From positions 960,001 to 1,024,000 of the forward strand of contig CP000067.1 in NCBI GenBank assembly GCA_000002445.1: DNA of 64,000 bases. The letters are read 5' to 3'. Position numbers and translations under genes: made by a program. This document shows, piece by piece, positions 9,473 to 63,045 of this stretch. Origin of the DNA: Trypanosoma brucei (taxonomy: Eukaryota). Every line of letters begins with the position of its first letter. The first letter of the stretch is position 1. The notes beneath the pieces were generated by a model. That model did no database searches. It was not told the origin of the DNA and was given only the letters and a program-made list of their open reading frames with translations.

Positions 9473-9487
9473 GTGTGTGTGTGTGTT
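9473..9487. repeat. (GT)n microsatellite
   Basis: Reads gtgtgtgtgtgtgtg. Confidence 0.8.
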
Positions 9488-13029: not shown

Positions 13030-13265
13030 GCGTTTATGTTTGGATGCTTTGGAGGGTGACAGTAAGGTACTGCGCATGTACGCTAGGGGAAGACCTGTTT
13101 GCGATTGAAGGGTGTGTGTGTCTTGGCGCAGTTGCGTCTCGAATCCTTTGACAATTTTCCCAGCGCATAAACATTTTATTAGGGTCTCTGGATCTGGGAT
13201 GTCTCTGAGGTGCCACCGTACCTGTCGATGTCACGAGGTAGACGTTTCAAACTTAGGTTGCTCCA

Positions 13266-25700: not shown

Positions 25701-26611
25701 ATAAAATACTTTGAAATATAACCTTCGCAGCGGCGCATGGCAGCGAATTGCAAATGAAAGAAAGAGAAAGAAAGAGTGTGTGTGTATGGGAGACAGGGCC
25801 GCTCACTTCTATCTGCAGTTTGAATATAAATAAATAAATAAATATATATATATATATTTTCCCCTTTTTAATTTATTTTGAATTCTGTTATTTTAGTTAG
25901 TTTTTCTTTTTTTTTTTCGTTATTCTGATGGGTCGTCACCTGAAGCGATGACGATTACTCCCACACGCATACGTGACGAAAATATAAAAAAAATTGAATA
26001 TATATATATATATATTTTCTTTTTCCCTCTTTCTCAAATACGTGTATTTAATTGATTGATTAATTAATTAATTAAACGAGCGAGCGAGCGAATGAGCCAG
26101 TGTACTCATAGAGGGATGCCTGCACGGAACCCGTCTTTCCTCCCCTAATGTTATTATTTTTATTGTTATTATTATTTTTTTTTAAATAAAAAACAGAGGC
26201 AAAACAAAACCCGAAAAAAAAAAAGAAGAAAAGATTAAATAAATAGTAAAAATAAAAATAACACCCGTGCGCGCCCTCCCAAGTTTGCTACTTGAAATAT
26301 GTATCTACATTTGTTTTCAGTACTTTTGTTTTTGATTTTTTAAATAAAAATAACAAGTGATCCGTTGCCACTATTGAACCGTGCGCTGAGATAATATTTC
26401 GCGTGGGAACCACCTGTACACGCACACAAATACATGCATTAAGTATATAAAAGTATATAAAAATATGAATTTGTGTCTGTTTGTGTGTGCTTTTCGTTCC
26501 TTTCTTTTATTTTCTTTTGTTTTGTTTTGCTTCGTTTTTTTTCTTTGTTTTTTCCCTTTTCCTCTTTTTCACTCTCTCATACTTGAGTGATAGAGAGAAT
26601 ATTCCATCACA
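22792..26611. repeat. 3.8-kb AT-rich low-complexity intergenic spacer: poly(A)/poly(T), (TAAA)n, (TA)n, (GAAA)n, (CAGTT)n at 22934-22955, (ATGC)n at 24507-24520
   Basis: Seen directly. No ORF above 125 aa. Composed of homopolymers and short-period repeats without a long-period tandem unit. Confidence 0.7.
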
Positions 26612-37700: not shown

Positions 37701-38328
37701 TAACAATAAAGTAACCACCCTGGTCATGTGGACACTCGTTGAGCCTTGGTAATTCTTCCTCATCCTTGTTCAGAAGATTGCACCGCATGGACTTCAGCAT
37801 AATCGGAATGCGACCGAGTTCCATATTCTGAAGAAATGTGCGATACGGCTGCTCCTCACGCGATCGGTACACGCGAATGGCGAGTGTTACTTGCGCAACA
37901 GCGTCATACGTCAAGTCCCGCAGTCGACACTCATTAGGGAAAAGGGGATGCATTTCCGTGCGGCTGAAGCCCGACATTTCGTGGGAGGGGTTTCCCACTA
38001 CGACGTCCTCCAGGCTCAGGCGGTATTGATCTGGCTCACTCTCCACGTGAACGCCCGGGTCGAACTGATCATCCTGCCTGGGTACAATTTCAAGAAGGCT
38101 CCGCGCCATGCGGGGAATACGAAGAAGGAAGTCATTATATGAATCTACCTGCTGGTGCACGAGACCCTTCTCCCTGAAAAACGATGAGATAATCTCCCAT
38201 ATGTCTTCACTGTCAATATCGGCTGTGTTCACGTTCTCCATGCCCGCCACACGATGTATGTCATCAACATCATCATCTGTGATTTCCTCCACCTCGTTGA
38301 GCTGTAGAAGTAGTTCGTCGTCCATCAT
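34756..38328 (-). CDS. RPB2: DNA-directed RNA polymerase II second-largest subunit
   Basis: The N-terminus ([29 protein letters not shown]) matches the Rpb2-specific start (yeast ...[26 protein letters not shown]). Conserved [13 protein letters not shown] and [10 protein letters not shown] motifs and a C-terminal Zn-ribbon (CNMCG...CQGCDN) are present. 1190 aa. Confidence 0.92.
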   Translation of the reverse strand: [1190 protein letters not shown]

Positions 38329-46112: not shown

Positions 46113-47266
46113 GATTACTAAGCTGAAGTAACCTCAGGTGGTGAAGATATTTCCTATTAAGGACAGATAAGAGAAGAAAAGTAAAGCAAAAATAAGAGAT
46201 AATAATAAAGAAAAAGAAAAATAATAATCAGAAAAATAAGATAAATCACTCAAAAGCACACTGAACAAGCAAAAACAATTATAAAGCAATATATCACTAA
46301 AAACAAAAAAAATGAAAGATAAATTAAAAAAAAATTAACCTGCAAAAATAAACCATTCCTCCAAAGCTTTAACATCACCCACAAACATAACGACAAAGTT
46401 AAAAATCACATAGACATAAATAGTTCTTATGTAACAATTAACAGAGCAAAACATGATAAATTTCACACCCTCTCCAAAAAAGGAAAAAAAATTCGACAGA
46501 GCTCCACAAATTAGGTTGGAGGCCAACCTTACCATTTTCGTACCTGGCATACTGAAGGCAAATGGAAGAAAAGTATGAGGTGTTGACATATGCGGGATCG
46601 TAGTAAGCAACATCACACATAGGGGGAGGGAATGACTGAAAACGCAAACAAATACAAATGATGAAATACGAAGATACAAACCAAGCGGTGCTATTGCGCA
46701 CACGTGAGGGGCGTACAAGGATTTTCCTCATATTGGTTGCGTTGCTTCAGAATAATGGTATGGATGCAACAGTTAGCCACGGAAAAGGCACAATAGCATT
46801 TGCATTCGACACAGTAGAGAAAGGGGAGAGATGTGTACACATAAACCAATATAACAATAAGGGGAGAAAACATCGAACCGAGCAGTTGGTAAAAATGGTG
46901 ATAGGGTAGCGGTTGTAATATTGACATAATAAAACAGGCACTGCCACATTAAAAGATGTTTTTGAACAGAGTTGTGAGTCGGCAGGAGGTGCGTGCACAG
47001 TAATTAAATGCCGGGACCACAACATCCACACTACAGACAGTTATGAAGAGTAGACCATAACATGTGTTTAGTGAGGCAGGGGATAAACCAAAAAAGGATC
47101 TACAAGACATGATTAACATATTTGCAAGGGGGCCGAAACAAAAACATATAACAACGTTAACATGTGTGGTAAACGTAAATGGGAAAAGGAAAAATTACGA
47201 ACCTTTGCAACATACACCACCAACACATAGGGTAACACAAGCTTTCCACAGTTAAAGCGAAAACAA

Positions 47267-50200
47267 TTAATTCCCGTGAAGCTCACGCTCCAATCCATGA
47301 TTGGAAATTATAATGAGTGACGCACTCCTAAGTGTACTGACAGAGTGCTCACTGCCAACTGCTGCACAGTGATCGACCACTCGACCCACTTTCACTGCAA
47401 TACGCCGTATAACTCCTTCGCAATATTCCTCATTCCACGTGGCTTTCGATGACGGCGGGAGGCTCACCTGCCAGCGCTCGCATAAAGGCATCAATAGTTT
47501 CTGTCTTTGGGATAGAGGGACTGTACCGAAAACAGCGTGCAAACAGCTATCAATCATCTGCGAAGTTCCACTTAATACGCCACGTAAGGATCCCGTATCG
47601 CTGAAGGAAGTGCTTGACAGATCCCCGTCCTCGACAACCTCGTGGTCCAACCTCAGTGCTGCGAAGGACCGTCCGACTACAGCGTTTAGTTGGTACATTT
47701 CAACAGGCTCAGGGACGCCACGCAACGACATGGATCCAAGAGCTGTCACGTCAAGTTGCCCACGCTCTGAATTGCTTAGCGAAAGATATGCCGCGCGCGT
47801 CAGCAGCACCTGACCACCATTAGCCACACTTTCTGTTCGCGCTGCCATGTTTGATGTTCGCCCGTAGTAATCGTAGCCTTTTGTCACTTCGTCATGACGG
47901 ATATCGCAAAGACCAGTGTGGACCCCGACACGCACGCGCAACCCATTCCACAGTTGGCGATAAACCTCAGGATCCAACCGTGCGGACGGTGCCTTGTATT
48001 CGTTATCGTCATCTGCACGCTGCCTCTCAAACTCACGATACGAATCGTCGAATGCTGTGGTGCCCCACTCATGGCACAGGAAGCACCGCTGTAAGTCGGA
48101 CGCAAGCTGTGCAGCAGCAAAAGGTTTTTTACAAGCAATCATAAACGAGTCCCCAACAGTCTTTACCTCATAGCATCCGTACTGTACGATGAGTGAGCGG
48201 ATAAGACGGTGGTGTGTTGACACGGCATCAGGCATCAGCTCAGGGTGTGCTGCCCACTGCGCTGTGCTGCTCTCTATGTCAGTAAAGATTAGCGTTACGG
48301 GCTCCACCGGCTCCTTGGGAGCACTGTCATTGTCACGCGCACCACGGCGCAGAACATAGAGCACCACCACCAGAGGCGCAGCAAACAAAGCCAAGGCGAC
48401 GAGGGAACCAACAATAACTCCGGCAAGTTGTGCGGACGACAACTTAATGGCGTTAGGATCAGCGTAGCGTATCAATGGCGTGACGGGCGAGGTTAATGGC
48501 GGTACGGAGGCATTTAATGCACGTGCCAGTGACCACATGGAAATACGCGTTGCGCCATAGTTCACGACACACACCTCTCCTTGTTCAGGGACTGGGTCAT
48601 TGGCTGTGAAGCACTCCTTCTCCTCTTCCTCTTCAAAAGGACCGTACCGCATTTCATCCGCGGTAATGATAGATTGCATGTAGATGGTGTCAAGCAGCGT
48701 TTTGGGTGTCACATACTCCATGCGTGGGAGGACGGCTTGAGCAAACCGTGCAGCAGCGTACCCCAGCAACGGCAGCGGCTTCCATGCTGATGAGTCTGGC
48801 AATGCGGTATGAAATTCTCTTACGATCTCTGATGACGTATTGGCGTCTGCCCAGTGAGGTAAACTTGTCGCGAACTGCACACGCTCAGCGTTCGGGTTAC
48901 CATTGAATGCGCTGACCAGCTCATCATACATCAGGGCAACGTCGAAGAATGGGATGAGCACACGCACATCTGGGTTGCGATCCAGGTGCGCTGCGAGCAA
49001 GGAAGGGTCACCGGGGGCAAGACCAATAACAAACGCATTCCCACGGTTTGGCAGGCGCCCAACAAGGGTGGCATTGTCATCCAGCACAGCTACCGTTTGC
49101 AGTGTTCCGCCGTGCATCCAAACAATCTTCCGCAGTGCGACCTCAATGATGGTGGCATCAGCTCCACGTACGATGGCAGACATAGGGGCGCTGGCACTTG
49201 TGTTTGTCACGTAACCCACAACAACAAACAACTGCTGCTCGAGTGTGGGTGAAAGTTGAATCACGTTTTTGCCACGATGATGCAGGCGTGGTGTAAGCAT
49301 TACGGGGTCAACGAAGGCAACTTCGGCAATGGACAGCATCGCATCGTCAACGACACCAAACACAGCCGTCACACTCCTTGTGTCAAGCTGATGCTGCAAT
49401 GTTCTGGCACTTTCCGCTGAGGATGATGCCATTGAATGAAAGAACAGTTGTCGTGAAAGAACTGAATCCTTTTCGCTGATCGGTGAGTGCAGTGCCGCTG
49501 ACATCGACGCATATGTATCCACAGGTAGCGCCGTATCAAACAAAGTTAAGGACAGGATACTCATCGGTGATGGGATTCTCGGTTTGTTTATGTAACACTT
49601 TTTGGAATCAAAAATTGTTACTCCGCCGTTGACTGGAAATAATCTATAGCTACTACCAATAACGTTTATGTATACCACACTTCCTCCCTGATTACAGTTG
49701 CATGCTGCTCCTCGCTCACCGGCCCCACCTTTGCAGTCTCCACCAAAATCACCAATCACAAGGTCGTCAATAACATAACGGCGCTGGTTATACAGTGACT
49801 CCATGAATGCCTTCCTGCTTGTTAGCCACTCCCGACTACTTAGCGCCTGGGACAGCACTTCTCCCGCAATCCACCCATACACCATAAGCCTCCCATCCAC
49901 GTCGTCGTGGTCGAAGTTATCCGTGCCATTGAAAACAGTCACTCCAGGATTAGCGCTCAGGTACGACCTCATGTGATCCTGAAAGCGCCTGATTGCTTGG
50001 TATCGTATGTCTGCTGCTAGTGGATTTGTTCCAGTCAATATTACCTGTCCAAATTTCAAAGGCGCCCCTGCAGCTTCCAATGCCTCGCGCCACGCTCCTA
50101 CGATAGAAAACTCGAGTGCCGAAGGAGCCAGTACATAAGCGTCGCGTGTACGTTTGTCAGCTACCATCTTTTTCATAAACTGTATTGAATCTTTTCCAGG

Positions 50201-50965
50201 TGGTGCAAATAAAATTACGCCCTGAGGTTCTGTTAGAGCGAAATCGTTCCATAAGAAATCGAAATTGTGACTGCCATACAAACCTTCGTCGTCGATATTC
50301 TTTGTGAACACACCGCACAGCTCACGACCCATATGAGAGAACAGCTCTACTGCATGCTTATACTCACTATCACCAAAGGACGCGTTCTGAAGATACATAA
50401 ATCCAATCCGAAGCAGGCGCAGTTGGCTGACGGCGTGCCGCACCAATGCAATAAGCTCGGCAGTGGGTGACACGCGGATAAAATATATGTTGGGATTCCA
50501 TCCACGCACAATACTCGACCCTGTAGATGGAGCGAAGGCAACCAGATCTTCCCGCTTCAGCAATGGAAGTAATAACACCGTACGGCGGTCACTTAATGGT
50601 CCAAACACAACAAATAAACCCTTTTCTGTAGTAGCAACACGTTGTAAGGCATCAACTACTTCAACGTTGTTAGGGGGAGGCGGCACAACCTGCACCGTTA
50701 CATTGGGTGCCACAGTCCACTGGCGAGCGGCAAATGACGCATTGAGGCCGGCATTTATTGCTTCGACTAGTCTGTACTCAACGTAGGGACTATAAATGAA
50801 AGAGTAAACCTTCACCTTTATGTTTCCCTCTGAGTGCGCTGGAAGAACATTTGAGAACAGTAACAGTGCCATAACGGTGGAAAGGCGACAGTGCCACACA
50901 GCGTAGCCCGCGGATTTGCTCGCAGCAGGCGTGTGAGGACCATCAGTTTCACTGTGGTAAATCAT
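47267..50965 (-). CDS. GRESAG4: Receptor-type adenylate cyclase (GRESAG4-like), array copy 1
   Basis: 1232-aa ORF with the same architecture and catalytic motifs as the 13266..17090 gene. The probable start is the internal ATG at 50872 (MALLLFSNVLPAHSEG, signal-peptide-like). Confidence 0.9.
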   Translation of the reverse strand: MIYHSETDGPHTPAASKSAGYAVWHCRLSTVMALLLFSNVLPAHSEGNIKVKVYSFIYSPYVEYRLVEAINAGLNASFAARQWTVAPNVTVQVVPPPPNNVEVVDALQRVATTEKGLFVVFGPLSDRRTVLLLPLLKREDLVAFAPSTGSSIVRGWNPNIYFIRVSPTAELIALVRHAVSQLRLLRIGFMYLQNASFGDSEYKHAVELFSHMGRELCGVFTKNIDDEGLYGSHNFDFLWNDFALTEPQGVILFAPPGKDSIQFMKKMVADKRTRDAYVLAPSALEFSIVGAWREALEAAGAPLKFGQVILTGTNPLAADIRYQAIRRFQDHMRSYLSANPGVTVFNGTDNFDHDDVDGRLMVYGWIAGEVLSQALSSREWLTSRKAFMESLYNQRRYVIDDLVIGDFGGDCKGGAGERGAACNCNQGGSVVYINVIGSSYRLFPVNGGVTIFDSKKCYINKPRIPSPMSILSLTLFDTALPVDTYASMSAALHSPISEKDSVLSRQLFFHSMASSSAESARTLQHQLDTRSVTAVFGVVDDAMLSIAEVAFVDPVMLTPRLHHRGKNVIQLSPTLEQQLFVVVGYVTNTSASAPMSAIVRGADATIIEVALRKIVWMHGGTLQTVAVLDDNATLVGRLPNRGNAFVIGLAPGDPSLLAAHLDRNPDVRVLIPFFDVALMYDELVSAFNGNPNAERVQFATSLPHWADANTSSEIVREFHTALPDSSAWKPLPLLGYAAARFAQAVLPRMEYVTPKTLLDTIYMQSIITADEMRYGPFEEEEEKECFTANDPVPEQGEVCVVNYGATRISMWSLARALNASVPPLTSPVTPLIRYADPNAIKLSSAQLAGVIVGSLVALALFAAPLVVVLYVLRRGARDNDSAPKEPVEPVTLIFTDIESSTAQWAAHPELMPDAVSTHHRLIRSLIVQYGCYEVKTVGDSFMIACKKPFAAAQLASDLQRCFLCHEWGTTAFDDSYREFERQRADDDNEYKAPSARLDPEVYRQLWNGLRVRVGVHTGLCDIRHDEVTKGYDYYGRTSNMAARTESVANGGQVLLTRAAYLSLSNSERGQLDVTALGSMSLRGVPEPVEMYQLNAVVGRSFAALRLDHEVVEDGDLSSTSFSDTGSLRGVLSGTSQMIDSCLHAVFGTVPLSQRQKLLMPLCERWQVSLPPSSKATWNEEYCEGVIRRIAVKVGRVVDHCAAVGSEHSVSTLRSASLIIISNHGLERELHGN

Positions 50966-52427
50966 TGAATACGTGAAGGAAGCAATGAATGGCTTGCTTT
51001 AGGTGAGTGGCCGTATGTGTACGCGTGCTTGTTGTCTACAAAAGTTGTGTGGGAGGTGGGTGCAGTGCAAAGAAATTTGGTGGGATTATAAATGGCGGAC
51101 ACAACCTTCCACAACAGCATCAAAGAGAAGATTTGCGATTCACACTGTTATAGGTAGCAGCGTGACGAAAAACAGTAACAGCTGCAACAGATTGTGGTGT
51201 TAGGCCAGCACAGACTGCTACAGCACGACACAAGTGGGTGTAAAGCTGGCTTTCATTACATTGGCGCAACTCGAATAAACTCGACAGGGCAGCAACGAAT
51301 TCGGAACAGCTCCCTCGGAAATCACTAAAGGCAGTCACGTGATCAAGATCTGTCACGAAAAATGGCACGCCGCTGCCAGCCGGGGGATTATATACTTGGG
51401 TGCTGCCGATACACGCGTAATTCCTTCCACGCAGTAAATGATAAGATGGAGCAACGGCGACACCCGAATCGGAAGCCACACGCGGCGAAATAGGACAGAA
51501 TCGCATTCAGTCATAGGTCACAAGTATTGCGTTGTTCAGCCATGCGATTGCAAAAACGGTAGTATCCAAATTACATCGCATACAACATTCACTCAATCCA
51601 TATCGTGCACGAAGAACACAAAATGTGGGTACGAGCCATTACCACACGGCATCGACACGCAGGACTGGGTCATCGTTTGGAGGCCAACCTTACCATTTTC
51701 GTACCTGGCATACTGAAGGCAAATGGAAGAAAAGTATGAGGTGTTGACATATGCGGGATCGTAGTAAGCAACATCACACATAGGGGGAGGGAATGACTGA
51801 AAACGCAAACAAATACAAATGATGAAATACGAAGATACAAACCAAGCGGTGCTGTTGCGCACACGTGAGGGGCGTACAAGGATTTTCCTCATATTGGTTG
51901 CGTTGCTTCAGAATAATGGTATGGATGCAACAGTTAGCCACGGAAAAGGCACAATAGCATTTGCATTCGACACAGTAGAGAAAGGGGAGAGATGTGTACA
52001 CATAAACCAATATAACAATAAGGGGAGAAAACATCGAACCGAGCAGTTGGTAAAAATGGTGATAGGGTAGCGGTTGTAATATTGACATAATAAAACAGGC
52101 ACTGCCACATTAAAAGATGTTTTTGAACAGAGTTGTGAGTCGGCAGGAGGTGCGTGCACAGTAATTAAATGCCGGGACCACAACATCCACACTACAGACA
52201 GTTATGAAGAGTAGACCATAACATGTGTTTAGTGAGGCAGGGGATAAACCAAAAAAGGATCTACAAGACATGATTAACATATTTGCAAGGGGGCCGAAAC
52301 AAAAACATATAACAACGTTAACATGTGTGGTAAACGTAAATGGGAAAAGGAAAAATTACGAACCTTTGCAACATACACCACCAACACATAGGGTAACACA
52401 AGCTTTCCACAGTTAAAGCGAAAACAA

Positions 52428-55400
52428 TTAATTCCCGTGAAGCTCACGCTCCAATCCATGATTGGAAATTATAATGAGTGACGCACTCCCGAGTGTGCTG
52501 ACAGAGTGCTCACTGCCACTTGCTGCACAGTGATCCGCAACTCGACCCACTTTCACTGCAATACGCCGTATAACTCCTTCGCAATATTCCTCATTCCACG
52601 TGGCTTTCGATGACGGCGGGAGGCTCACCTGCCAGCGCTCGCATAAAGGCATCAATAGTTTCTGTCTTTGGGATAGAGGGACTGTACCGAAAACAGCGTG
52701 CAAACAGCTATCAATCATCTGCGAAGTTCCACTTAATACGCCGCGTAAGGATCCCGTATCGCTGAAGGAAGTGCTTGACAGATCCCCGTCCTCGCCAGAT
52801 TCGTGGTCCAACCTCAGTGCTGCGAAGGACCGTCCGACTACAGCGTTTAGTTGGTACATTTCAACAGGCTCAGGGACGCCACGCAACGACATGGATCCAA
52901 GAGCTGTCACGTCAAGTTGCCCACGCTCTGAATTGCTTAGCGAAAGATATGCCGCGCGCGTCAGCAGCACCTGACCACCATTAGCCACACTTTCTGTTCG
53001 CGCTGCCATGTTTGATGTTCGCCCGTAGTAATCGTAGCCTTTTGTCACTTCGTCATGACGGATATCGCAAAGACCAGTGTGGACCCCGACACGCACGCGC
53101 AACCCATTCCACAGTTGGCGATAAACCTCAGGATCCAACCGTGCGGACGGTGCCTTGTATTCGTTATCGTCATCTGCACGCTGCCTCTCAAACTCACGAT
53201 ACGAATCGTCGAATGCTGTGGTGCCCCACTCATGGCGCAGGAAGCACCGCTGTAAGTCGGACGCAAGCTGTGCAGCAGCAAAAGGTTTTTTACAAGCAAT
53301 CATAAACGAGTCCCCAACAGTCTTTACCTCATAGCATCCGTACTGTACGATGAGTGAGCGGATAAGACGGTGGTGTGTTGACACGGCATCAGGCATCAGC
53401 TCAGGGTGTGCTGCCCACTGCGCTGTGCTGCTCTCTATGTCAGTAAAGATTAGCGTTACGGGCTCCACCGGCTCCTTGGGAGCACTGTCATTGTCACGCG
53501 CACCACGGCGCAGAACATAGAGCACCACCACCAGAGGCGCAGCAAACAAAGCCAAGGCGACGAGGGAACCAACAATAACTCCGGCAAGTTGTGCGGACGA
53601 CAACTTAATGGCGTTAGGATCAGCGTAGCGTATCAATGGCGTGACGGGCGAGGTTAATGGCGGTACGGAGGCATTTAATGCACGTGCCAGTGACCACATG
53701 GAAATACGCGTTGCGCCATAGTTCACGACACACACCTCTCCTTGTTCAGGGACTGGGTCATTGGCTGTGAAGCACTCCTTCTCCTCTTCCTCTTCAAAAG
53801 GACCGTACCGCATTTCATCCGCGGTAATGATAGATTGCATGTAGATGGTGTCAAGCAGCGTTTTGGGTGTCACATACTCCATGCGTGGGAGGACGGCTTG
53901 AGCAAACCGTGCAGCAGCGTACCCCAGCAACGGCAGCGGCTTCCATGCTGATGAGTCTGGCAATGCGGTATGAAATTCTCTTACGATCTCTGATGACGTA
54001 TTGGCGTCTGCCCAGTGAGGTAAACTTGTCGCGAACTGCACACGCTCAGCGTTCGGGTTACCATTGAATGCGCTGACCAGCTCATCATACATCAGGGCAA
54101 CGTCGAGGAATGGGATGAGCACACGCACATCTGGGTTGCGATCCAGGTGCGCTGCGAGCAAGGAAGGATCACCGGGGGCAAGACCAATAACAAACGCATT
54201 CCCACGGTTTGGCAGGCGCCCAACAAGGGTGGCATTGTCATCCAGCACAGCTACCGTTTGCAGTGTTCCGCCGTGCATCCAAACAATCTTCCGCAGTGCG
54301 ACCTCAATGATGGTGGCATCAGCTCCACGTACGATGGCAGACATAGGGGCGCTGGCACTTGTGTTTGTCACGTAACCCACAACAACAAACAACTGCTGCT
54401 CGAGTGTGGGTGAAAGTTGAATCACGTTTTTGCCATGATGATGCAGGCGTGGTGTAAGCATTACGGGGTCAACGAAGGCAACTTCGGCAATGGACAGCAT
54501 CGCATCGTCAACGACACCAAACACAGCCGTCACACTCCTTGTGTCAAGCTGATGCTGCAATGTTCTGGCACTTTCCGCTGAGGATGATGCCATTGAATGA
54601 AAGAACAGTCGCCGTGAAAGGGCTGATTCTCTTCCCCTGGTGGAAGCGTACAGCGCCTCGGACATCGACGCATATGTATCCACAGGTAGCGCCGTATCAA
54701 ACAAAGTTAAGGACAGGATACTCATCGGTGATGGGATTCTCGGTTTGTTTATGTAACACTTTTTGGAATCAAAAATTGTTACTCCGCCGTTGACTGGAAA
54801 TAATCTATAGCCACTACCAATAACATTCATTAGTACCAGACTTCCTCCCTGATTACAGTTGCATGCTGCTCCCTGTTTAGCCGCCCCACCTTTGCAGTCT
54901 CCACCAAAATCACCAATCACAAGGTCGTCAATAACATAACGGCGCTGGTTATACAGTGACTCCATGAATGCCTTCCTGCTTGTTAGCCACTCCCGACTAC
55001 TTAGCGCCTGGGACAGCACTTCTCCCGCAATCCACCCATACACCATAAGCCTCCCATCCACGTCGTCGTGGTCGAAGTTATCCGTGCCATTGAAAACAGT
55101 CACTCCAGGATTAGCGCTCAGGTACGACCTCATGTGATCCTGAAAGCGCCTGATTGCTCGGTAGAGTGTGTTTTTTGCTAGTGGATTTGTTCCAGTCAAT
55201 ATTACCTGTCCAAACTTCAAAGGCGCCCCTGCAGCTTCCAATGCCTCGCGCCACGCTCCTACGATAGAAAACTCGAGTGTTGAATGAGCCAGTACGTAAG
55301 CGTCGCGTGTACGTTTGTCAGCCACTATTTTATTCAGAAACCTCATTGTGTCGTTGATTGGTGGTGCAACAGCGATTACGCCCTGAGGCCGCGTCTTCGC

Positions 55401-56126
55401 AAACGCTTCCCACGCCGCTTCGAAGGCTCTGTCGTCAGCAAAAGCTTCCATTGAGCTTTTTACAGTAAACACGCCGCACAGCTCACGACCCATATGAGAG
55501 AACAGCTCTACTGCATGCTTATACTCACTATCACCAAACGAAATGTCCCGAAGATACATAAATCCAATCCGAAGCAGGCGCAGTTGGCTGACAGCATACC
55601 GGACCAATGCAATAAGCTCGGCAGTGGGTGAAGCGCGGATAAAATATATGTTGGGATTCCATCCACGCACAATACTCGACCCTGTAGATGGAGCGAAGGC
55701 AACCAGATCTTCCCGCTTCAGCAATGGAAGTGCGTGTAATGTTTCAATATCGGTCAGTGGTCCAAACACAACAAATAAACCCTTTTCTGTAGTAGCAACA
55801 CGTTGTAAGGCATCAACTACTTCAACGTTGTTAGGGGGAGGCGGCACAACCTGCACCGTTACATTGGGTGCCACAGTCCACTGGCGAGCGGCAAATGACG
55901 CATTGAGGCCGGCATTTATTGCTTCAACTTGTCTGTACTCGAAGTAGGGACTATAAATGAAAGAGTAAACCTTCACCTTTATGTTTCCCTCTGAGTGCGC
56001 TGGAAGAACATTTGAGAACAGTAACAGTGCCATAACGGTGGAAAGGCGACAGTGCCACACAGCGGAGCCCGCGGATTTGCTCGCAGCAGGCGTGTGAGGA
56101 CCATCAGTTTCACTGTGGTAAATCAT
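52428..56126 (-). CDS. GRESAG4: Receptor-type adenylate cyclase (GRESAG4-like), array copy 2
   Basis: 1232 aa. The C-terminal 700 aa are near-identical to copy 1. The N-terminal domain differs in discrete patches. Confidence 0.9.
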   Translation of the reverse strand: MIYHSETDGPHTPAASKSAGSAVWHCRLSTVMALLLFSNVLPAHSEGNIKVKVYSFIYSPYFEYRQVEAINAGLNASFAARQWTVAPNVTVQVVPPPPNNVEVVDALQRVATTEKGLFVVFGPLTDIETLHALPLLKREDLVAFAPSTGSSIVRGWNPNIYFIRASPTAELIALVRYAVSQLRLLRIGFMYLRDISFGDSEYKHAVELFSHMGRELCGVFTVKSSMEAFADDRAFEAAWEAFAKTRPQGVIAVAPPINDTMRFLNKIVADKRTRDAYVLAHSTLEFSIVGAWREALEAAGAPLKFGQVILTGTNPLAKNTLYRAIRRFQDHMRSYLSANPGVTVFNGTDNFDHDDVDGRLMVYGWIAGEVLSQALSSREWLTSRKAFMESLYNQRRYVIDDLVIGDFGGDCKGGAAKQGAACNCNQGGSLVLMNVIGSGYRLFPVNGGVTIFDSKKCYINKPRIPSPMSILSLTLFDTALPVDTYASMSEALYASTRGRESALSRRLFFHSMASSSAESARTLQHQLDTRSVTAVFGVVDDAMLSIAEVAFVDPVMLTPRLHHHGKNVIQLSPTLEQQLFVVVGYVTNTSASAPMSAIVRGADATIIEVALRKIVWMHGGTLQTVAVLDDNATLVGRLPNRGNAFVIGLAPGDPSLLAAHLDRNPDVRVLIPFLDVALMYDELVSAFNGNPNAERVQFATSLPHWADANTSSEIVREFHTALPDSSAWKPLPLLGYAAARFAQAVLPRMEYVTPKTLLDTIYMQSIITADEMRYGPFEEEEEKECFTANDPVPEQGEVCVVNYGATRISMWSLARALNASVPPLTSPVTPLIRYADPNAIKLSSAQLAGVIVGSLVALALFAAPLVVVLYVLRRGARDNDSAPKEPVEPVTLIFTDIESSTAQWAAHPELMPDAVSTHHRLIRSLIVQYGCYEVKTVGDSFMIACKKPFAAAQLASDLQRCFLRHEWGTTAFDDSYREFERQRADDDNEYKAPSARLDPEVYRQLWNGLRVRVGVHTGLCDIRHDEVTKGYDYYGRTSNMAARTESVANGGQVLLTRAAYLSLSNSERGQLDVTALGSMSLRGVPEPVEMYQLNAVVGRSFAALRLDHESGEDGDLSSTSFSDTGSLRGVLSGTSQMIDSCLHAVFGTVPLSQRQKLLMPLCERWQVSLPPSSKATWNEEYCEGVIRRIAVKVGRVADHCAASGSEHSVSTLGSASLIIISNHGLERELHGN

Positions 56127-57588
56127 TGAATACGTGAAGGAAGCAATGAATGGCTTGCTTTAGGTGAGTGGCCGTATGTGTACGCGTGCTTGTTGTCTAC
56201 AAAAGTTGTGTGGGAGGTGGGTGCAGTGCAAAGAAATTTGGTGGGATTATAAATGGCGGACACAACCTTCCACAACAGCATCAAAGAGAAGATTTGCGAT
56301 TCACACTGTTATAGGTAGCAGCGTGACGAAAAACAGTAACAGCTGCAACAGATTGTGGTGTTAGGCCAGCACAGACTGCTACGGCACGACACAAGTGGGT
56401 GTAAAGCTGGCTTTCATTACATTGGCGCAACTCGAATAAACTCGACAGGGCAGCAACGAATTCGGAACAGCTCCCTCGGAAATCACTAAAGGCAGTCACG
56501 TGATCAAGATCTGTCACGAAAAATGGCACGCCGCTGCCAGCCGGGGGATTATATACTTGGGTGCTGCCGATACACGCGTAATTCCTTCCACGCAGTAAAT
56601 GATAAGATGGAGCAACGGCGACACCCGAATCGGAAGCCACACGCGGCGAAATAGGACAGAATCGCATTCAGTCATAGGTCACAAGTATTGCGTTGTTCAG
56701 CCATGCGATTGCAAAAACGGTAGTATCCAAATTACATCGCATACAACATTCACTCAATCCATATCGTGCACGAAGAACACAAAATGTGGGTACGAGCCAT
56801 TACCACACGGCATCGACACGCAGGACTGGGTCATCGTTTGGAGGCCAACCTTACCATTTTCGTACCTGGCATACTGAAGGCAAATGGAAGAAAAGTATGA
56901 GGTGTTGACATATGCGGGATCGTAGTAAGCAACATCACACATAGGGGGAGGGAATGACTGAAAACGCAAACAAATACAAATGATGAAATACGAAGATACA
57001 AACCAAGCGGTGCTGTTGCGCACACGTGAGGGGCGTACAAGGATTTTCCTCATATTGGTTGCGTTGCTTCAGAATAATGGTATGGATGCAACAGTTAGCC
57101 ACGGAAAAGGCACAATAGCATTTGCATTCGACACAGTAGAGAAAGGGGAGAGATGTGTACACATAAACCAATATAACAATAAGGGGAGAAAACATCGAAC
57201 CGAGCAGTTGGTAAAAATGGTGATAGGGTAGCGGTTGTAATATTGACATAATAAAACAGGCACTGCCACATTAAAAGATGTTTTTGAACAGAGTTGTGAG
57301 TCGGCAGGAGGTGCGTGCACAGTAATTAAATGCCGGGACCACAACATCCACACTACAGACAGTTATGAAGAGTAGACCATAACATGTGTTTAGTGAGGCA
57401 GGGGATAAACCAAAAAAGGATCTACAAGACATGATTAACATATTTGCAAGGGGGCCGAAACAAAAACATATAACAACGTTAACATGTGCGGTAAACGTAA
57501 ATGGGAAAAGGAAAAATTACGAACCTTTGCAACATACACCACCAACACATAGGGTAACACAAGCTTTCCACAGTTAAAGCGAAAACAA

Positions 57589-60500
57589 TTAATTCCCGTG
57601 AAGTTCACGCTCCAATCCATGATTAGAAATTATAATGAGTGACGCACTCCCGAGTGTGCTGACAGAGTGCTCACTGCCACTTGCTGCACAGTGATCCGCA
57701 ACTCGACCCACTTTCACTGCAATACGCCGTATAACTCCTTCGCAATATTCCTCATTCCACGTGGCTTTCGATGACGGCGGGAGGCTCACCTGCCAGCGCT
57801 CGCATAAAGGCATCAATAGCTGCTGTTGGTGTGCAGGAGCGAACGCACCAAAAACTGCTTTAATCGATATCGAGAATTTCTGTGCCGACGCGTTGATTGA
57901 TCCACGTAAGGATCCCGTATCGCTGAAGGAAGTGCTTGACAGATCCCCGTCCTCGCCAGCTTCGTGGTCCAACCTCAGTGCTGCGAAGGACCGTCCGACT
58001 ACAGCGTTTAGTTGGTACATTTCAACAGGCTCAGGGACGCCACGCAACGACATGGATCCAAGAGCTGTCACGTCAAGTTGCCCACGCTCTGAATTGCTTA
58101 GCGAAAGATATGCCGCGCGCGTCAGCAGCACCTGACCACCATTAGCCACACTTTCTGTTCGCGCTGCCATGTTTGATGTTCGCCCGTAGTAATCGTAGCC
58201 TTTTGTCACTTCGTCATGACGGATATCGCAAAGACCAGTGTGGACCCCGACACGCACGCGCAACCCATTCCACAGTTGGCGATAAACCTCAGGATCCAAC
58301 CGTGCGGACGGTGCCTTGTATTCGTTATCGTCATCTGCACGCTGCCTCTCAAACTCACGATACGAATCGTCGAATGCTGTGGTGCCCCACTCATGGCGCA
58401 GGAAGCACCGCTGTAAGTCGGACGCAAGCTGTGCAGCAGCAAAAGGTTTTTTACAAGCAATCATAAACGAGTCCCCGACAGTCTTTACCTCATAGCATCC
58501 GTACTGTACGATGAGTGAGCGGATAAGACGGTGGTGTGTTGACACGGCATCAGGCATCAGCTCAGGGTGTGCTGCCCACTGCGCTGTGCTGCTCTCTATG
58601 TCAGTAAAGATTAGCGTTACGGGCTCCACCGGCTCCTTGGGAGCACTGTCATTGTCACGCGCACCACGGCGCAGAACATAGAGCACCACCACCAGAGGCG
58701 CAGCAAACAAAGCCAAGGCGACGAGGGAACCAACAATAACTCCGGCAAGTTGTGCGGACGACAACTTAATGGCGTTAGGATCAGCGTAGCGTATCAATGG
58801 CGTGACGGGCGAGGTTAATGGCGGTACGGAGGCATTTAATGCACGTGCCAGTGACCACATGGAAATACGCGTTGCGCCATAGTTCACGACACACACCTCT
58901 CCTTGTTCAGGGACTGGGTCATTGGCTGTGAAGCACTCCTTCTCCTCTTCCTCTTCAAAAGGACCGTACCGCATTTCATCCGCGGTAATGATAGATTGCA
59001 TGTAGATGGTGTCAAGCAGCGTTTTGGGTGTCACATACTCCATGCGTGGGAGGACGGCTTGAGCAAACCGTGCAGCAGCGTACCCCAGCAACGGCAGCGG
59101 CTTCCATGCTGATGAGTCTGGCAATGCGGTATGAAATTCTCTTACGATCTCTGATGACGTATTGGCGTCTGCCCAGTGAGGTAAACTTGTCGCGAACTGC
59201 ACACGCTCAGCGTTCGGGTTACCATTGAATGCGCTGACCAGCTCATCATACATCAGGGCAACGTCGAAGAATGGGATGAGCACACGCACATCTGGGTTGC
59301 GATCCAGGTGCGCTGCGAGCAAGGAAGGGTCACCGGGGGCAAGACCAATAACAAACGCATTCCCACGGTTTGGCAGGCGCCCAACAAGGGTGGCATTGTC
59401 ATCCAGCACAGCTACCGTTTGCAGTGTTCCGCCGTGCATCCAAACAATCTTCCGCAGTGCGACCTCAATGATGGTGGCATCAGCTCCACGTACGATGGCA
59501 GACATAGGGGCGCTGGCACTTGTGTTTGTCACGTAACCCACAACAACAAACAACTGCTGCTCGAGTGTGGGTGAAAGTTGAATCACGTTTTTGCCACGAT
59601 GATGCAGGCGTGGTGTAAGCATTACGGGGTCAACGAAGGCAACTTCGGCAATGGACAGCATCGCATCATCAACGACACCAAACACAGCCGTCACACTCCT
59701 TGTGTCAAGCTGATGCTGCAATGTTCTGGCACTTTCCGCTGAGGATGATGCCATTGAATGAAAGAAAAGTCGGTGAAATTGTGTCATATCGGCGTTGCGA
59801 TTGGTAGCTGATGCTGATTTATGAATTTCGCGATTGATTTTTTTTTTTCGATGAGATTCATTGCTGAGGATAAATAATCCGTTAAGTGGTGCATAAAGGA
59901 TGATGCCATCGGCATCGCACATTCCATGTTGTATTACTTTCACCGGGTTCTTTGCTGGTAGAAGTTTGTAATTTTCTGCAAACTGCTTTACGTATACCAC
60001 ACTTCCTCCCTGATTACAGTTGCATGCTGCTCCTCGCTCACCGGCCCCACCTTTGCAGTCTCCACCAAAATCACCAATCACAAGGTCGTCAATAACATAA
60101 CGGCGCTGGTTATACAGTGACTCCATGAATGCCTTCCTGCTTGTTAGCCACTCCCGACTACTTAGCGCCTGGGACAGCACTTCTCCCGCAATCCACCCAT
60201 ACACCATAAGCTCCCCATCCACGTCGTCGTGGTGGAAGTTATCCGTGCCATTGAAAACAGTCACTCCAGGATTAGCGCTCAGGTACGACCTCATGTGATC
60301 CTGAAAGCGCCTGATTGCTTGGTATCGTATGTCTGCTGCTAGTGGATTTGTTCCAGTCAATATTACCTGTCCCGGCTTCAATTGTTTACCAGCCGCCGCT
60401 AGTGCAAAGCGCCACGTCACTTCAACTACGAACTCTAGTGCCGAGGGAGCCAGTACGTAAGCGTCGCGTGTACGTTTGTCAGCTACCATCTTGGTAATAA

Positions 60501-61293
60501 ATTTAACAGTGTCTCTTGCTGCTGGTGGTGCAAATAAAATTACGCCCTGAGGCCGCGTCTTCGCAAACGCTTCCCACGCCGCTTCGAAGGCTCTGTCGTC
60601 AGCAAAAGCTTCCATTGAGCTTTTTACAGTAAACACACCGCACAGCTCACGACCCATATGAGAGAACAGCTCTACTGCATGTTCATGCTCTCTGTCACCA
60701 AACGAAATGTCCTGAAGATACATAAATCCAATCCGAAGCAGGCGCAGTTGGCTGACAGCATACCGGACCAATGCAATAAGCTCGGCAGTGGGTGAAGCGC
60801 GGATAAAATATATGTTGGGATTCCATCCACGTACAGAGTCGGAACCGGTTATAGGAGCGAAGGCAACCAGATCTTCCCGCTCCAGCAATGGAAGTGCGTG
60901 TAATGTTTCAACATCGCCCATTGGCCCGATAATTATAATAAACTTACCTTTATTTTGGTTTATGGTATCATGCAGTGTTTCCATAAATGAAACGTTGTTA
61001 GGGGGAGGCGGCACAACCTGCACCGTTACATTGGGTGCCACAGTCCACTGGCGAGCGGCAAATGACGCATTGAGGCCGGCATTTATTGCTTCAGTTAGCC
61101 TCAGAGGCAACCTTTGTAGGGAGAGAAAAGAGTAAACCTTCACCTTTATGTTTCCCTCTGAGTGCGCTGGAAGAACATTTGAGAACAGTAACAGTGCCAT
61201 AACGGTGGAAAGGCGACAGTGCCACACAGCGGAGCCCGCGGATTTGCTCGCAGCAGGCGTGTGAGGACCATCAGTTTCACTGTGGTAAATCAT
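57589..61293 (-). CDS. GRESAG4: Receptor-type adenylate cyclase (GRESAG4-like), array copy 3 (most divergent extracellular domain and C-terminal tail)
   Basis: 1234 aa. The catalytic region is identical. Copy-specific segments encode VKQFAENYKLLPAKNPVKVIQHGMCDADGIILYAPLNG... and a C-tail patch GSINASAQKFSISIKAVFGAFAPAHQQQ. Confidence 0.88.
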   Translation of the reverse strand: MIYHSETDGPHTPAASKSAGSAVWHCRLSTVMALLLFSNVLPAHSEGNIKVKVYSFLSLQRLPLRLTEAINAGLNASFAARQWTVAPNVTVQVVPPPPNNVSFMETLHDTINQNKGKFIIIIGPMGDVETLHALPLLEREDLVAFAPITGSDSVRGWNPNIYFIRASPTAELIALVRYAVSQLRLLRIGFMYLQDISFGDREHEHAVELFSHMGRELCGVFTVKSSMEAFADDRAFEAAWEAFAKTRPQGVILFAPPAARDTVKFITKMVADKRTRDAYVLAPSALEFVVEVTWRFALAAAGKQLKPGQVILTGTNPLAADIRYQAIRRFQDHMRSYLSANPGVTVFNGTDNFHHDDVDGELMVYGWIAGEVLSQALSSREWLTSRKAFMESLYNQRRYVIDDLVIGDFGGDCKGGAGERGAACNCNQGGSVVYVKQFAENYKLLPAKNPVKVIQHGMCDADGIILYAPLNGLFILSNESHRKKKINREIHKSASATNRNADMTQFHRLFFHSMASSSAESARTLQHQLDTRSVTAVFGVVDDAMLSIAEVAFVDPVMLTPRLHHRGKNVIQLSPTLEQQLFVVVGYVTNTSASAPMSAIVRGADATIIEVALRKIVWMHGGTLQTVAVLDDNATLVGRLPNRGNAFVIGLAPGDPSLLAAHLDRNPDVRVLIPFFDVALMYDELVSAFNGNPNAERVQFATSLPHWADANTSSEIVREFHTALPDSSAWKPLPLLGYAAARFAQAVLPRMEYVTPKTLLDTIYMQSIITADEMRYGPFEEEEEKECFTANDPVPEQGEVCVVNYGATRISMWSLARALNASVPPLTSPVTPLIRYADPNAIKLSSAQLAGVIVGSLVALALFAAPLVVVLYVLRRGARDNDSAPKEPVEPVTLIFTDIESSTAQWAAHPELMPDAVSTHHRLIRSLIVQYGCYEVKTVGDSFMIACKKPFAAAQLASDLQRCFLRHEWGTTAFDDSYREFERQRADDDNEYKAPSARLDPEVYRQLWNGLRVRVGVHTGLCDIRHDEVTKGYDYYGRTSNMAARTESVANGGQVLLTRAAYLSLSNSERGQLDVTALGSMSLRGVPEPVEMYQLNAVVGRSFAALRLDHEAGEDGDLSSTSFSDTGSLRGSINASAQKFSISIKAVFGAFAPAHQQQLLMPLCERWQVSLPPSSKATWNEEYCEGVIRRIAVKVGRVADHCAASGSEHSVSTLGSASLIIISNHGLERELHGN

Positions 61294-63045
61294 TGAATAC
61301 GTGAAGGAAGCAATGAATGGCTTGCTTTAGGTGAGTGGCCGTATGTGTACGCGTGCTTGTTGTCTACAAAAGTTGTGTGGGAGGTGGGTGCAGTGCAAAG
61401 AAATTTGGTGGGATAAAATAAGTGTTAATGTTAGATATGATAGTGCTGCACCGGTATTAAGTCACATAGTTGTATCTTTTTTCTGTTTTCATCTGGATGA
61501 CGTTTCCTTCACCGAGCCGCTGCATGTCATTACTTCCATTGGTATTCGCATTTTTTATATTTGAGAACGATTCAAATCTTATTTATGTTTTCTTTTGTGA
61601 ATTTTAGTTGCAATCTTACTTTTCACCTCGTTTTGTTGCCGTTGTTTTCGTGCTTTTCTACATTCTTTTGCCCATGTGAAAGGGAACATGGGCGTCCGTG
61701 TGCGTGAAAAGCTGCGGATCCCGCTGCTCTTAGCGAATAACGTCAGCGTTGAATTCCACCTGATACAGATAATTTATAAACGGGTACTCGAAATGTCAAC
61801 ATGCTGCTGAGCAGAGCCCAATGCTCTGAAGGGCGAGAGGGGAAATAAGGAGTTGCTGATGGTATCTTTGTTCGACTGCTGCCTTTTGGTGGCGGCGCAT
61901 GGAAGACGACACATATATTTGCCCGTTCATGCACGTAAGGTCGTAGCCCGTGTCGTGTGGCGGGGGACTCTTACTCCCATTTGCCCTGCTGCACTTGTCT
62001 TAACTCCGCTCCATGTTTCTCACCATTCCTTTTTCCGGTGTATCAGAAGTATGAACCATCTTCACGTGAAAAAAAAATAATCAGGGACACCGTTTATGAT
62101 GCTGCGCTGTTAGTCACGTGAGTTTTCGTACGCAGCTCGCCTGCGAACCGTTTGGGGAAAAGGAAGTCACTTGCAGAAGCATGACCTGGTCTCAAAATAG
62201 TGTGTATCGCTCTGTATGGCGGCGTGGAAACACAGATATCGGTTCTGATTGACATATTTTGTACCTTTCCTGCGGCTAGCCTACCTACTACACGGGTTCC
62301 CCGCTTTCTTTTTCTCTAACTCCTCGTACCGTTGCTGCTAGAGGCGTCTAAAAATACAGAGGGAAACAATTTCCCTTTATACTTTCCTTTTCCTTCTTTG
62401 CCAGTGTATCACTACTGCACCGTATCAGCAGTAAGATTCCTTCCTTACCTAGAACCAACCCGGGAAACTGCGGCGGCAGGTGCTCCACCTTCGAACTGAG
62501 TTGGTCTTCGGACTGATGCTACTGGGCCATTTCTCCTCTTTCTTTCGTTAAAGCCCTAACTAAAAAGTGTAGGAGTGGAGGGGGTTTGAAATTTTGTGTA
62601 GGGTTAACAGAGGGCCTCAGTTAAACTCTCAACGACTTATCATCGTCCTCCGTTCTCAGCATCACACTTCCTGCACGATGGGGTGAATTTTCTTTTTTTT
62701 TGACTCACCCCTCGCCTCAGCTTCCCTTTTCCCATGAGTCTGTGACTTTAAAGAGCATATGTGTGGTCGAGAGCTCACCAATTTGTGCCGCTGCAACTAC
62801 GGGGAAAAAGGCCAAATTTCCGAAGCAACCTCCTCCCATGAAACAAAAAGAAAATTAAGGTGCGTACGCACAATGAAGGACAGCGCACACACGCGTGCCC
62901 ACCACGCTCTCTTTCCCTCACTAGCCTTCGTACCGACCAGCATCAAGCATCATTTTTCGCTGGATGTTAGTGAAACTCACAGCGCCAGTTTGCAGCCGTA
63001 CAGCTCTCCCTCCCACCGCTGCGTACGCTTCAGTGCTAATTTGCC

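What the first reader, a model, noticed from the sequence alone, without database searches (positions are those of the whole stretch)
46516..61418. Three-copy head-to-tail array of receptor adenylate cyclase genes with a 5161-bp period
Exact periodicity, with identical spacers down to the antisense ORFs, indicates very recent unequal-crossover or gene-conversion homogenisation. Arrays like this are copy-number unstable and are often collapsed or mis-assembled. Both array ends (about 46516 and about 61418) fall in intergenic sequence, so the amplified unit is gene plus spacer.
Basis: seen in the sequence. Interest (0 to 1): 0.5.

Follow-up and report, generated by a model that had tools for sequence, protein, structure and literature searches.

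The report
Known trypanosome adenylate cyclase gene array
The three-gene repeat is real, but it is the already catalogued tandem array of receptor adenylate cyclase (GRESAG4) genes on chromosome 4 of the sleeping-sickness parasite Trypanosoma brucei, a textbook example of gene copies that keep exchanging sequence with one another.

Summary
Observation confirmed. Three head-to-tail copies lie on the minus strand, and three-copy homology runs from 46516 to 61414. The period is exactly 5161 bp from copy 1 to copy 2. It grows to 5167 bp from copy 2 to copy 3 through two 3-nt insertions.

The window is T. brucei brucei TREU927 chromosome 4. The genes are XP_844536, XP_844537 and XP_844538, which I infer to be Tb927.4.3860, .3870 and .3880. 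[quoted passage not shown] Jackson et al. 2010 list this array as tandem array 25: 3 copies in brucei, 4 in gambiense, recombination test p<0.001.

The copies are not identical. They are a mosaic:
- Spacers, UTRs and the transmembrane plus cyclase half are nearly identical.
- Patches of the extracellular sensor domain differ strongly. Proteins are 94% and 86% identical.

These isoforms recur in the same order in T. b. gambiense. Even so, spacers and catalytic regions are more alike within a genome than between genomes. So the array is old and evolves in concert by gene conversion and unequal crossing-over. It is not a very recent triplication.

A fourth, inverted paralogue 30 kb away shares a 2.1-kb homogenised block. 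Copy number differs among assemblies (2, 3, 6 gene models).

Verdict: correct observation, ordinary for this genome, already known.

The parts
47267..50965 (-). Copy 1 coding sequence, 1232 aa, receptor-type adenylate cyclase GRESAG4 (XP_844536 / AAZ10977; inferred Tb927.4.3860)
   Evidence: ORF. Pfam PF25495, PF25493, PF00211 and PF13458. Exact sequence match to the TREU927 protein. Residues 878-1107 match PDB 1FX4 at E 1.7e-119.
52428..56126 (-). Copy 2 coding sequence, 1232 aa (XP_844537 / AAZ10978; inferred Tb927.4.3870)
   Evidence: ORF. Exact match. 93.8% protein identity to copy 1.
57589..61293 (-). Copy 3 coding sequence, 1234 aa (XP_844538 / AAZ10979; inferred Tb927.4.3880), the most divergent isoform
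   Evidence: ORF. Pfam. Exact match. 85.7% protein identity to copy 1. Unique patches at residues 38-156, 276-315, 436-515 and 1116-1155.
46516..47266 (-). Segment A: 751 nt directly 3' of the stop codon, present after all three genes (also at 51677-52427 and 56838-57588). Presumed 3' UTR.
   Evidence: 99-100% identical in all three copies, with a sharp left edge at 46516. The UTR assignment is an inference that follows Jackson 2007.
51087..51676 (-). Segment S: 590-nt spacer core, present only between genes (second copy at 56248-56837) and absent from both outer flanks
   Evidence: BLAST of S against the window finds only these two copies. Its 128-aa sense ORF evolves neutrally, with 7 nonsynonymous and 2 synonymous differences among strains.
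56248..56837 (-). Second copy of segment S
   Evidence: 99.8% identical to 51087-51676.
61294..61414 (-). Segment B: 121 nt directly 5' of the ATG, present before all three genes (also at 50966-51086 and 56127-56247). It holds a pyrimidine-rich tract and the first AG, and is the presumed trans-splice acceptor plus 5' UTR.
   Evidence: Identity ends at 61414. Sequence read. The splice-site role is an inference and was not tested.
13266..17090 (+). Fourth GRESAG4 gene, 1274 aa (XP_844525), inverted relative to the array and about 30 kb away. Its block 14968-17068 is 96.6-98.2% identical to the array copies.
   Evidence: ORF and Pfam. Exact match. BLAST. It shares strain-specific substitutions with the array copies.

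Best explanation
This is the annotated three-gene tandem array of receptor-type adenylate cyclase (GRESAG4) genes on chromosome 4 of Trypanosoma brucei brucei TREU927. It sits inside a minus-strand polycistronic unit, between a DEAD-box helicase gene and an NLE/WD40 gene.

Each gene encodes a signal peptide, an extracellular sensor made of two periplasmic-binding-protein-like domains, one transmembrane helix, a class III cyclase domain and a C-terminal tail.

The array arose by tandem duplication before the T. brucei subspecies diverged. Since then it has evolved in concert. Unequal crossing-over changes copy number. Short-tract gene conversion keeps the UTRs, the spacer and the transmembrane plus catalytic half nearly identical. 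Patches of the ectodomain and one patch of the C-terminal tail stay isoform-specific. The conversion network also includes a fourth, inverted paralogue 30 kb away.

Shown here: the identity of the locus, the anatomy, the mosaic, the concerted-evolution signature, and the differences in copy number among assemblies.

Inferred: that the retained ectodomain differences give sensors with different ligand specificities; that the shared UTRs give common post-transcriptional control; and that segments B and A correspond to the mature mRNA ends.
For: [quoted passage not shown]
- Domains: Pfam domains and the crystal-structure match to GRESAG4.3 and GRESAG4.1.
- Published record: array 25 'Adenylate cyclase, GRESAG4, Tb927.4.3880, chr 4, 3 copies Tbb, 4 Tbg, PHI p<0.001' in PMC2854126.
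- Mosaic: the three incompatible site patterns number 264, 49 and 99. They fall in 88 runs against 234 +/- 8 expected, p<1e-4.
- Concerted evolution, spacers: the two spacers differ at 2/1462 positions within TREU927 and 6/1459 within DAL972. Between genomes they differ at 14-18 positions plus a 3-nt indel, with at least 12 differences fixed in both spacers of a genome.
- Concerted evolution, coding: dS in the transmembrane plus cyclase region is 0-0.005 among paralogues and 0.026 between orthologues.
- Age: ectodomain dS is 0.16-0.36. The isoform order is conserved in DAL972. Isoform-specific patches are 95-100% conserved in the orthologues.
- Fourth gene: a 2101-nt block at 96.6-98.2% identity. 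At six sites (copy-1 nt 1650, 1713, 1716, 2142, 2196, 2700) all four TREU927 genes carry one base, and all five DAL972 genes and both equiperdum genes carry the other.
- Copy number: 2 genes in GCA_003543875.1, whose first gene is a copy3/copy2 hybrid. 3 genes here. 6 gene models in DAL972.
- Terminal curtailing of the spacer matches the general rule for T. brucei arrays given in PMC1855330.
Against: - The gene numbers Tb927.4.3860, .3870 and .3880 are inferred from accession order and from the papers. They were not read from an annotated record.
- The extra DAL972 units lie behind two 100-N gaps. The two-copy equiperdum array could be an assembly collapse. The copy-number differences are therefore assembly-level evidence only.
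- No outgroup was used, so the direction of the conversion events is unknown.
- The origin of the 590-bp spacer core is unexplained. It matches neither outer flank, which a simple one-step duplication model would predict.
- Overall dN/dS of about 0.5 in the ectodomain does not demonstrate positive selection.
Confidence: 0.94

Rival explanations
1. A very young triplication: three copies made by recent unequal crossing-over that have had no time to diverge.
For: The spacers differ at only 2/1462 positions. About 1.7 kb of coding sequence is identical in all copies. Copies 1 and 2 have no indels over 5161 nt.
Against: Ectodomain dS is 0.16-0.36, and protein identity is only 86-94%. The same three isoforms lie in the same order in DAL972. 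Substitutions fixed between strains are shared by all paralogues of a genome, which requires homogenisation after divergence. Runs of incompatible site patterns show a recombinant mosaic.
Confidence: 0.04
2. An assembly artefact: one or two real genes were duplicated by mis-assembly of a repetitive region.
For: Arrays of this kind are prone to mis-assembly. The DAL972 version has two sequence gaps. Jackson 2007 raises the same caveat.
Against: The three units differ at 166 to about 400 positions, so they are separate sequences. An independent assembly (DAL972) reproduces all three isoforms collinearly at 98.5% over 14.4 kb. There are no Ns in the window.
Confidence: 0.01
3. A pure gene-dosage array: the copies exist only to raise the output of one product in a genome that lacks gene-specific promoters, and the differences between copies are neutral noise.
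For: Polycistronic context, identical UTRs and identical catalytic halves. Jackson 2007 proposes dosage as the primary purpose of long arrays (abstract shown).
Against: The differences are concentrated in the sensor ectodomain. Each isoform-specific patch is conserved between subspecies, with orthologue dN/dS of 0.11-0.25, so each isoform is under purifying selection. Published RNA data single out Tb927.4.3870 and .3880 for 7-fold up-regulation in proventricular forms.
Confidence: 0.1

Closest known systems
T. brucei tandem gene array 25 (GRESAG4, Tb927.4.3880) of Jackson et al. 2010, PLoS Negl Trop Dis 4:e658 (PMC2854126), and the array survey of Jackson 2007, BMC Evol Biol 7:54 (PMC1855330)
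   Same: It is the same locus: chromosome 4, three copies in T. b. brucei, an aligned unit of about 5.17 kb, and significant recombination tests. The general properties described there are all seen here: mosaics, concerted evolution, and terminal UTRs identical to the internal spacers but curtailed.
   Different: There is no difference in kind. The published main texts do not mention exchange between this array and the inverted paralogue 30 kb away. Jackson 2007 states that ectopic conversion was substantiated for only two other arrays.
ESAG4, the adenylate cyclase gene of telomeric bloodstream VSG expression sites
   Same: Same protein family and domain architecture. ESAG4 entries are 46-52% identical to copy 3.
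   Different: This locus lies in the chromosome core among housekeeping genes (RPB2, RsmB-type methyltransferase, NLE/WD40, protein kinase, UCH). It is not in a telomeric expression site. These are therefore 'genes related to ESAG4' (GRESAG4).
GRESAG4.1 and GRESAG4.3 catalytic domains (PDB 1FX2, 1FX4)
   Same: Residues 878-1107 align end to end with both structures at E about 1e-119. The motifs FTDIESST, KTVGDSF and GRTSNMAARTES are conserved.
   Different: These are different family members. The ectodomains here have no solved structure in the sequence search.
Other concerted-evolution arrays, such as primate alpha-globin and rDNA, cited as models in Jackson 2007
   Same: Homogenisation of tandem paralogues by unequal crossing-over and gene conversion. 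Paralogues within a genome are more alike than orthologues for part of the unit.
   Different: Here homogenisation is regional. UTRs and the catalytic half are homogenised, while sensor-domain patches escape it.

Membership tests
Trypanosomatid receptor-type adenylate cyclase (ESAG4/GRESAG4 family) | Large extracellular region with periplasmic-binding-protein-like (Venus-flytrap) domains | tested here: met
   For copy 1, PF25495 at E 2e-54, PF25493 at E 8e-131 and PF13458 at E 1e-8. Results for copy 3 and the fourth gene are similar.
Trypanosomatid receptor-type adenylate cyclase (ESAG4/GRESAG4 family) | Single transmembrane helix between the ectodomain and the catalytic domain | tested here: met
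   A hydrophobic stretch, LAGVIVGSLVALALFAAPLVVVLYVL, lies between PF25493 (ends at 835) and PF00211 (starts at 884). It was read directly from the translation. No topology predictor was run.
Trypanosomatid receptor-type adenylate cyclase (ESAG4/GRESAG4 family) | Class III cyclase catalytic domain homologous to the crystallised GRESAG4 domains | tested here: met
   PF00211 at E 2.8e-37. 1FX4 at E 1.7e-119 and 1FX2 at E 2.1e-118 over residues 878-1110.
Trypanosomatid receptor-type adenylate cyclase (ESAG4/GRESAG4 family) | Adenylate cyclase activity and flagellar surface location | not testable with these tools
   Needs biochemistry and localisation experiments.
ESAG4 proper (expression-site gene) | Location in a telomeric bloodstream expression site alongside other ESAGs and a VSG | tested here: not met
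   The neighbours are core housekeeping genes. No ESAG or VSG domains were found in the ORFs scanned.
T. brucei tandem gene array under concerted evolution (Jackson 2007/2010) | Head-to-tail, same-strand copies of gene plus intergenic sequence | tested here: met
T. brucei tandem gene array under concerted evolution (Jackson 2007/2010) | Terminal non-coding regions identical to the internal spacer but curtailed | tested here: met
   751 nt on the 3' side and 121 nt on the 5' side are shared by the outer copies. 590 nt is internal only. The rule is stated.
T. brucei tandem gene array under concerted evolution (Jackson 2007/2010) | Paralogues within a genome more alike than orthologues between genomes, for at least part of the unit | tested here: met
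   Spacers. Synonymous divergence in the transmembrane plus cyclase region. Fixed strain-specific sites.
T. brucei tandem gene array under concerted evolution (Jackson 2007/2010) | Recombinant mosaic structure among the copies | tested here: met
   Runs test, p<1e-4. Window table. Published PHI test, p<0.001.
T. brucei tandem gene array under concerted evolution (Jackson 2007/2010) | Copy number varies among strains | tested here: inconclusive
   2, 3 and 6 gene models in three assemblies. DAL972 has gaps and the equiperdum assembly may be collapsed. No read-level data were available.

The most novel reading that the evidence does not exclude
The array is not a closed system. It exchanges sequence with a dispersed, inverted paralogue (13266-17090, + strand) that lies 30 kb away, across a convergent strand-switch region and a block of essential genes.

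Strain-specific substitutions have spread to all four TREU927 genes. In DAL972, copy 3 carries a tract like the fourth gene at copy-1 nt 2658-3078, and this tract is absent from TREU927 copy 3. DAL972 also has an isoform like the fourth gene inside its array.

This would be a further, apparently unreported case of 'ectopic' gene conversion. The published survey substantiated such conversion for only two T. brucei arrays.
Probability: 0.6. Interest if true: 0.25.

Novelty: already known. Interest (0 to 1): 0.15.

Why it matters
T. brucei has a greatly expanded family of receptor adenylate cyclases, which are thought to act as environmental sensors and modulators of host immunity. Arrays like this one show how the family diversifies. 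The signalling half is kept uniform by recombination, while the sensor half is allowed to differ. That principle, and this specific locus, are already published. The finding therefore adds no new biology. Its practical value is as a caution: read mapping, expression quantification and copy-number calls across this 15-kb region, and across the 2.1-kb block shared with the fourth gene, will be ambiguous.

Tried and rejected
- Origin of the 590-bp spacer core. BLAST with word size 7 against the whole window found only its two copies. It matched neither outer flank nor the region around the fourth gene. A one-step duplication whose junction is built from the flanks is therefore not supported. Its origin stays open: junction filler, or an excerpt from a longer ancestral array.\n- The 128-aa sense ORF inside the spacer core as a hidden gene. 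Rejected, because differences among strains are 7 nonsynonymous to 2 synonymous.\n- Outside donors for the divergent ectodomain patches. None was found among 75 family representatives. The best hits are always the orthologues. The database holds only 90% cluster representatives, so this is a weak negative.\n- tRNA, Rfam and tandem-repeat scans of the window found nothing.\n- Exact look-ups of the TREU927 proteins in the gene-position index failed. Ectodomain dN/dS is about 0.5 among paralogues, so it is not demonstrated.\n- Sequencing technology of the two-copy equiperdum assembly. I could not tie GCA_003543875.1 to the IVM-t1 paper with the tools. That paper reports only about 7,500 PacBio reads, so the two-copy count is not firm.
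Full report
**Observation**

The repeat finder returns three direct copies. Start-to-start spacing is 5161 and 5161 in the 3' part of the unit, and 5161 then 5164 and 5167 towards the 5' part. Three minus-strand ORFs of 1232, 1232 and 1234 aa lie at 47267-50965, 52428-56126 and 57589-61293.

Base-by-base comparison puts the left edge of three-copy identity exactly at 46516 and the right edge at 61414. Identity drops to random at both edges. Copies 1 and 2 align without any indel over 5161 nt but differ at 166 positions, which cluster in about ten patches. Copy 3 is 6 nt longer. The two internal spacers are each 1462 bp and differ at 2 positions. Their small ORFs recur at an exact 5161 offset. 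'Exact' and 'identical' are overstatements.

**Identity**

Each protein carries two trypanosome adenylate-cyclase periplasmic-binding-protein-like domains (PF25495, PF25493) and a class III cyclase domain (PF00211). Residues 878-1107 match the crystallised GRESAG4.3 and GRESAG4.1 catalytic domains at E about 1e-119.

Exact-sequence look-up places all three proteins on the 1,590,432-bp chromosome 4 record of T. brucei brucei TREU927. The RPB2 gene at 34756-38328 and a fourth cyclase at 13266-17090 are on the same record. [quoted passage not shown]

Papers that use the systematic names describe Tb927.4.3860-3880 as the cyclase genes at the inner end of the chromosome 4/8 duplicon (PMC2212663). 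They also list 'array 25, Adenylate cyclase GRESAG4, Tb927.4.3880, chromosome 4' with these values (PMC2854126):
- 3 annotated copies in T. b. brucei and 4 in T. b. gambiense.
- 3 shared isoforms and 1 gambiense-specific isoform.
- A 5171-site alignment.
- PHI test p<0.001 and at least 9 GARD breakpoints.

The mapping of accessions to the Tb927 numbers is my inference from gene order. The locus is therefore already annotated and already analysed as a recombining tandem array.

**Anatomy**

Read in the sense direction (minus strand), the structure is:

upstream flank | B - copy 3 - A - S - B - copy 2 - A - S - B - copy 1 - A | downstream flank

- B is the 121 nt before each ATG.
- A is the 751 nt after each stop codon.
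- S is a 590-nt core found only between genes (51087-51676 and 56248-56837).

B begins with a pyrimidine-rich tract followed by the first AG, 70 nt before the ATG. That arrangement is what a trans-splice acceptor would look like, but this is inference only. Jackson 2007 states the same rule for T. brucei arrays in general: terminal UTRs are identical to the internal intergenic sequence but curtailed, and the shared length was taken to be the UTR.

S matches nothing else in the window, not even the outer flanks, so its origin is unexplained. Its 128-aa sense ORF is intact in three strains, but the differences are 7 nonsynonymous to 2 synonymous. It therefore evolves neutrally and is not a gene.

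**Mosaic**

I tabulated mismatches in 40-codon windows. Residues of about 520-1110 cover the end of the second binding-protein domain, the transmembrane helix and the cyclase domain. This stretch is virtually identical in all copies.

The first 515 residues alternate between three kinds of block:
- copy 1 = copy 2, differing from copy 3;
- copy 2 = copy 3, differing from copy 1;
- copy 1 = copy 3, differing from copy 2.

Copy 3 also has two nearly unrelated patches, at residues 436-515 and 1116-1155.

Among 426 variable sites, the three incompatible patterns number 264, 49 and 99. They fall into 88 runs against 234 +/- 8 in 10,000 permutations. Protein identities to copy 1 are 93.8% for copy 2 and 85.7% for copy 3.

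**Age and concerted evolution**

I fetched the syntenic loci from two other assemblies: T. b. gambiense DAL972 (L001, L004, L005) and a T. b. equiperdum assembly (L002).

DAL972 carries the same three isoforms in the same order, collinear at 98.5% over 14.4 kb. Each isoform-specific patch is 95-100% conserved in its orthologue. The array and its isoforms therefore predate the subspecies split.

Even so, the parts that are alike are more alike within a genome than between genomes:
- Spacers differ at 2/1462 positions within TREU927 and 6/1459 within DAL972. Between genomes they differ at 14-18 positions plus a 3-nt indel, with at least 12 differences fixed in both spacers of a genome.
- Synonymous divergence in the transmembrane plus cyclase region is 0-0.005 among paralogues and 0.026 between orthologues.
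- In the ectodomain, dS is 0.16-0.36 among paralogues and 0.015-0.08 between orthologues.

This is the classical signature of regional concerted evolution. dN/dS is about 0.5 among paralogues and 0.11-0.25 between orthologues in the ectodomain. Positive selection is not demonstrated, but each isoform is under constraint.

**A fourth participant**

The cyclase gene at 13266-17090 is on the plus strand and so inverted relative to the array. It is 81% identical in protein sequence. It is separated from the array by a convergent strand switch and by genes for a protein kinase, a ubiquitin hydrolase, RPB2, an RsmB-type methyltransferase and an NLE/WD40 protein. It shares a 2101-nt block (14968-17068) at 96.6-98.2% identity with the three copies.

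At six sites within this block (copy-1 nt 1650, 1713, 1716, 2142, 2196, 2700), all four TREU927 genes carry one base. All five DAL972 genes and both equiperdum genes carry the other. These sites are interleaved with sites where the DAL972 fourth gene differs from the DAL972 array copies (nt 1665, 1776, 1804). A consensus-collapse artefact is therefore unlikely.

In DAL972, copy 3 carries a tract like the fourth gene (nt 2658-3078) that TREU927 copy 3 lacks. One extra DAL972 array member is like the fourth gene at its 5' end.

Jackson 2007 reports that ectopic conversion was substantiated for only two other arrays and does not mention this array in the main text. This detail may be unreported, but it is an increment and not a new principle.

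**Copy number**

Between the same flanking genes:
- TREU927 has 3 genes.
- DAL972 has 6 gene models: 1234, 1232 and 1232 aa, then a gap, 1204 aa, a 600-aa fragment, another gap, and a frameshifted 1233-aa model.
- GCA_003543875.1 has 2 genes and no Ns. Its upstream gene is copy-3-like for residues 38-77 and mostly copy-2-like afterwards, as expected from an unequal crossover between copies 3 and 2.

These are assembly-level observations. Gaps and collapse cannot be excluded.

**Function**

Published long-read transcriptomics reports Tb927.4.3870 and Tb927.4.3880 as the adenylate cyclases most strongly up-regulated in tsetse proventricular forms, 7-fold against midgut forms. One pull-down table lists Tb927.4.3880 among TbZFP3-associated transcripts at very low counts.

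The likely working picture is three co-transcribed sensors with a common signalling module, common UTR-based regulation and different ligand-binding surfaces. This is inference.

**Verdict**

'Very recent' and 'exact' are wrong, and an assembly artefact is excluded as far as sequence comparison allows. The locus and its behaviour are already in the literature. Interest is low and novelty is 'already known'.

Noticed in passing
window 13266-17090 (+), block 14968-17068: A fourth GRESAG4 gene lies inverted relative to the array. Its 2.1-kb block is 96.6-98.2% identical to the array copies. It shares strain-specific substitutions with them, which implies gene conversion across 30 kb and a convergent strand switch.
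   Followed up: yes
window 8717-8916 and 12835-13034: A 200-bp inverted repeat at 98.5% identity brackets about 3.9 kb just upstream of the fourth cyclase gene. No long ORF lies between the arms.
   Followed up: no
window 1-13200: About 13 kb has no ORF longer than 195 aa, which is unusual for a gene-dense trypanosome chromosome core. The two longest ORFs have no Pfam hit.
   Followed up: partly
window 23000-26500: A 3.5-kb AT-rich tract (27-31% GC) lies between a 401-aa ORF and a protein kinase gene. It has no ORFs of note, no tandem repeats, and no tRNA or Rfam hit.
   Followed up: partly
window 18000-18500: A GC spike (61% GC, GC skew +0.34) sits in the convergent region between the fourth cyclase gene and the minus-strand gene cluster.
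   Followed up: no
window 51120-51506 and 56281-56667 (-): A 128-aa ATG ORF lies on the sense strand inside the spacer core. It is intact in three strains, but the differences are 7 nonsynonymous to 2 synonymous, so it is probably not a gene.
   Followed up: yes
L001 14344-23699 and L005 1-11698 (T. b. gambiense DAL972): The gambiense array has three extra gene models beyond the three orthologues. They lie behind two 100-N gaps. One resembles the fourth TREU927 gene at its 5' end, one is a 600-aa fragment and one is frameshifted.
   Followed up: partly
L002 10001-13699 (T. b. equiperdum assembly GCA_003543875.1): This assembly has only two array genes. The upstream one is a copy-3/copy-2 hybrid with some copy-1-like patches. 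This is consistent with loss of a unit by unequal crossover, or with assembly collapse.
   Followed up: partly
protein hits P0033 and P0017: A 'Schistosoma mansoni' entry is 55% identical to these trypanosome cyclases. A 57-aa 'Streptococcus agalactiae' entry clusters with trypanosome RPB2. Both look like contamination or mislabelling in public databases.
   Followed up: no
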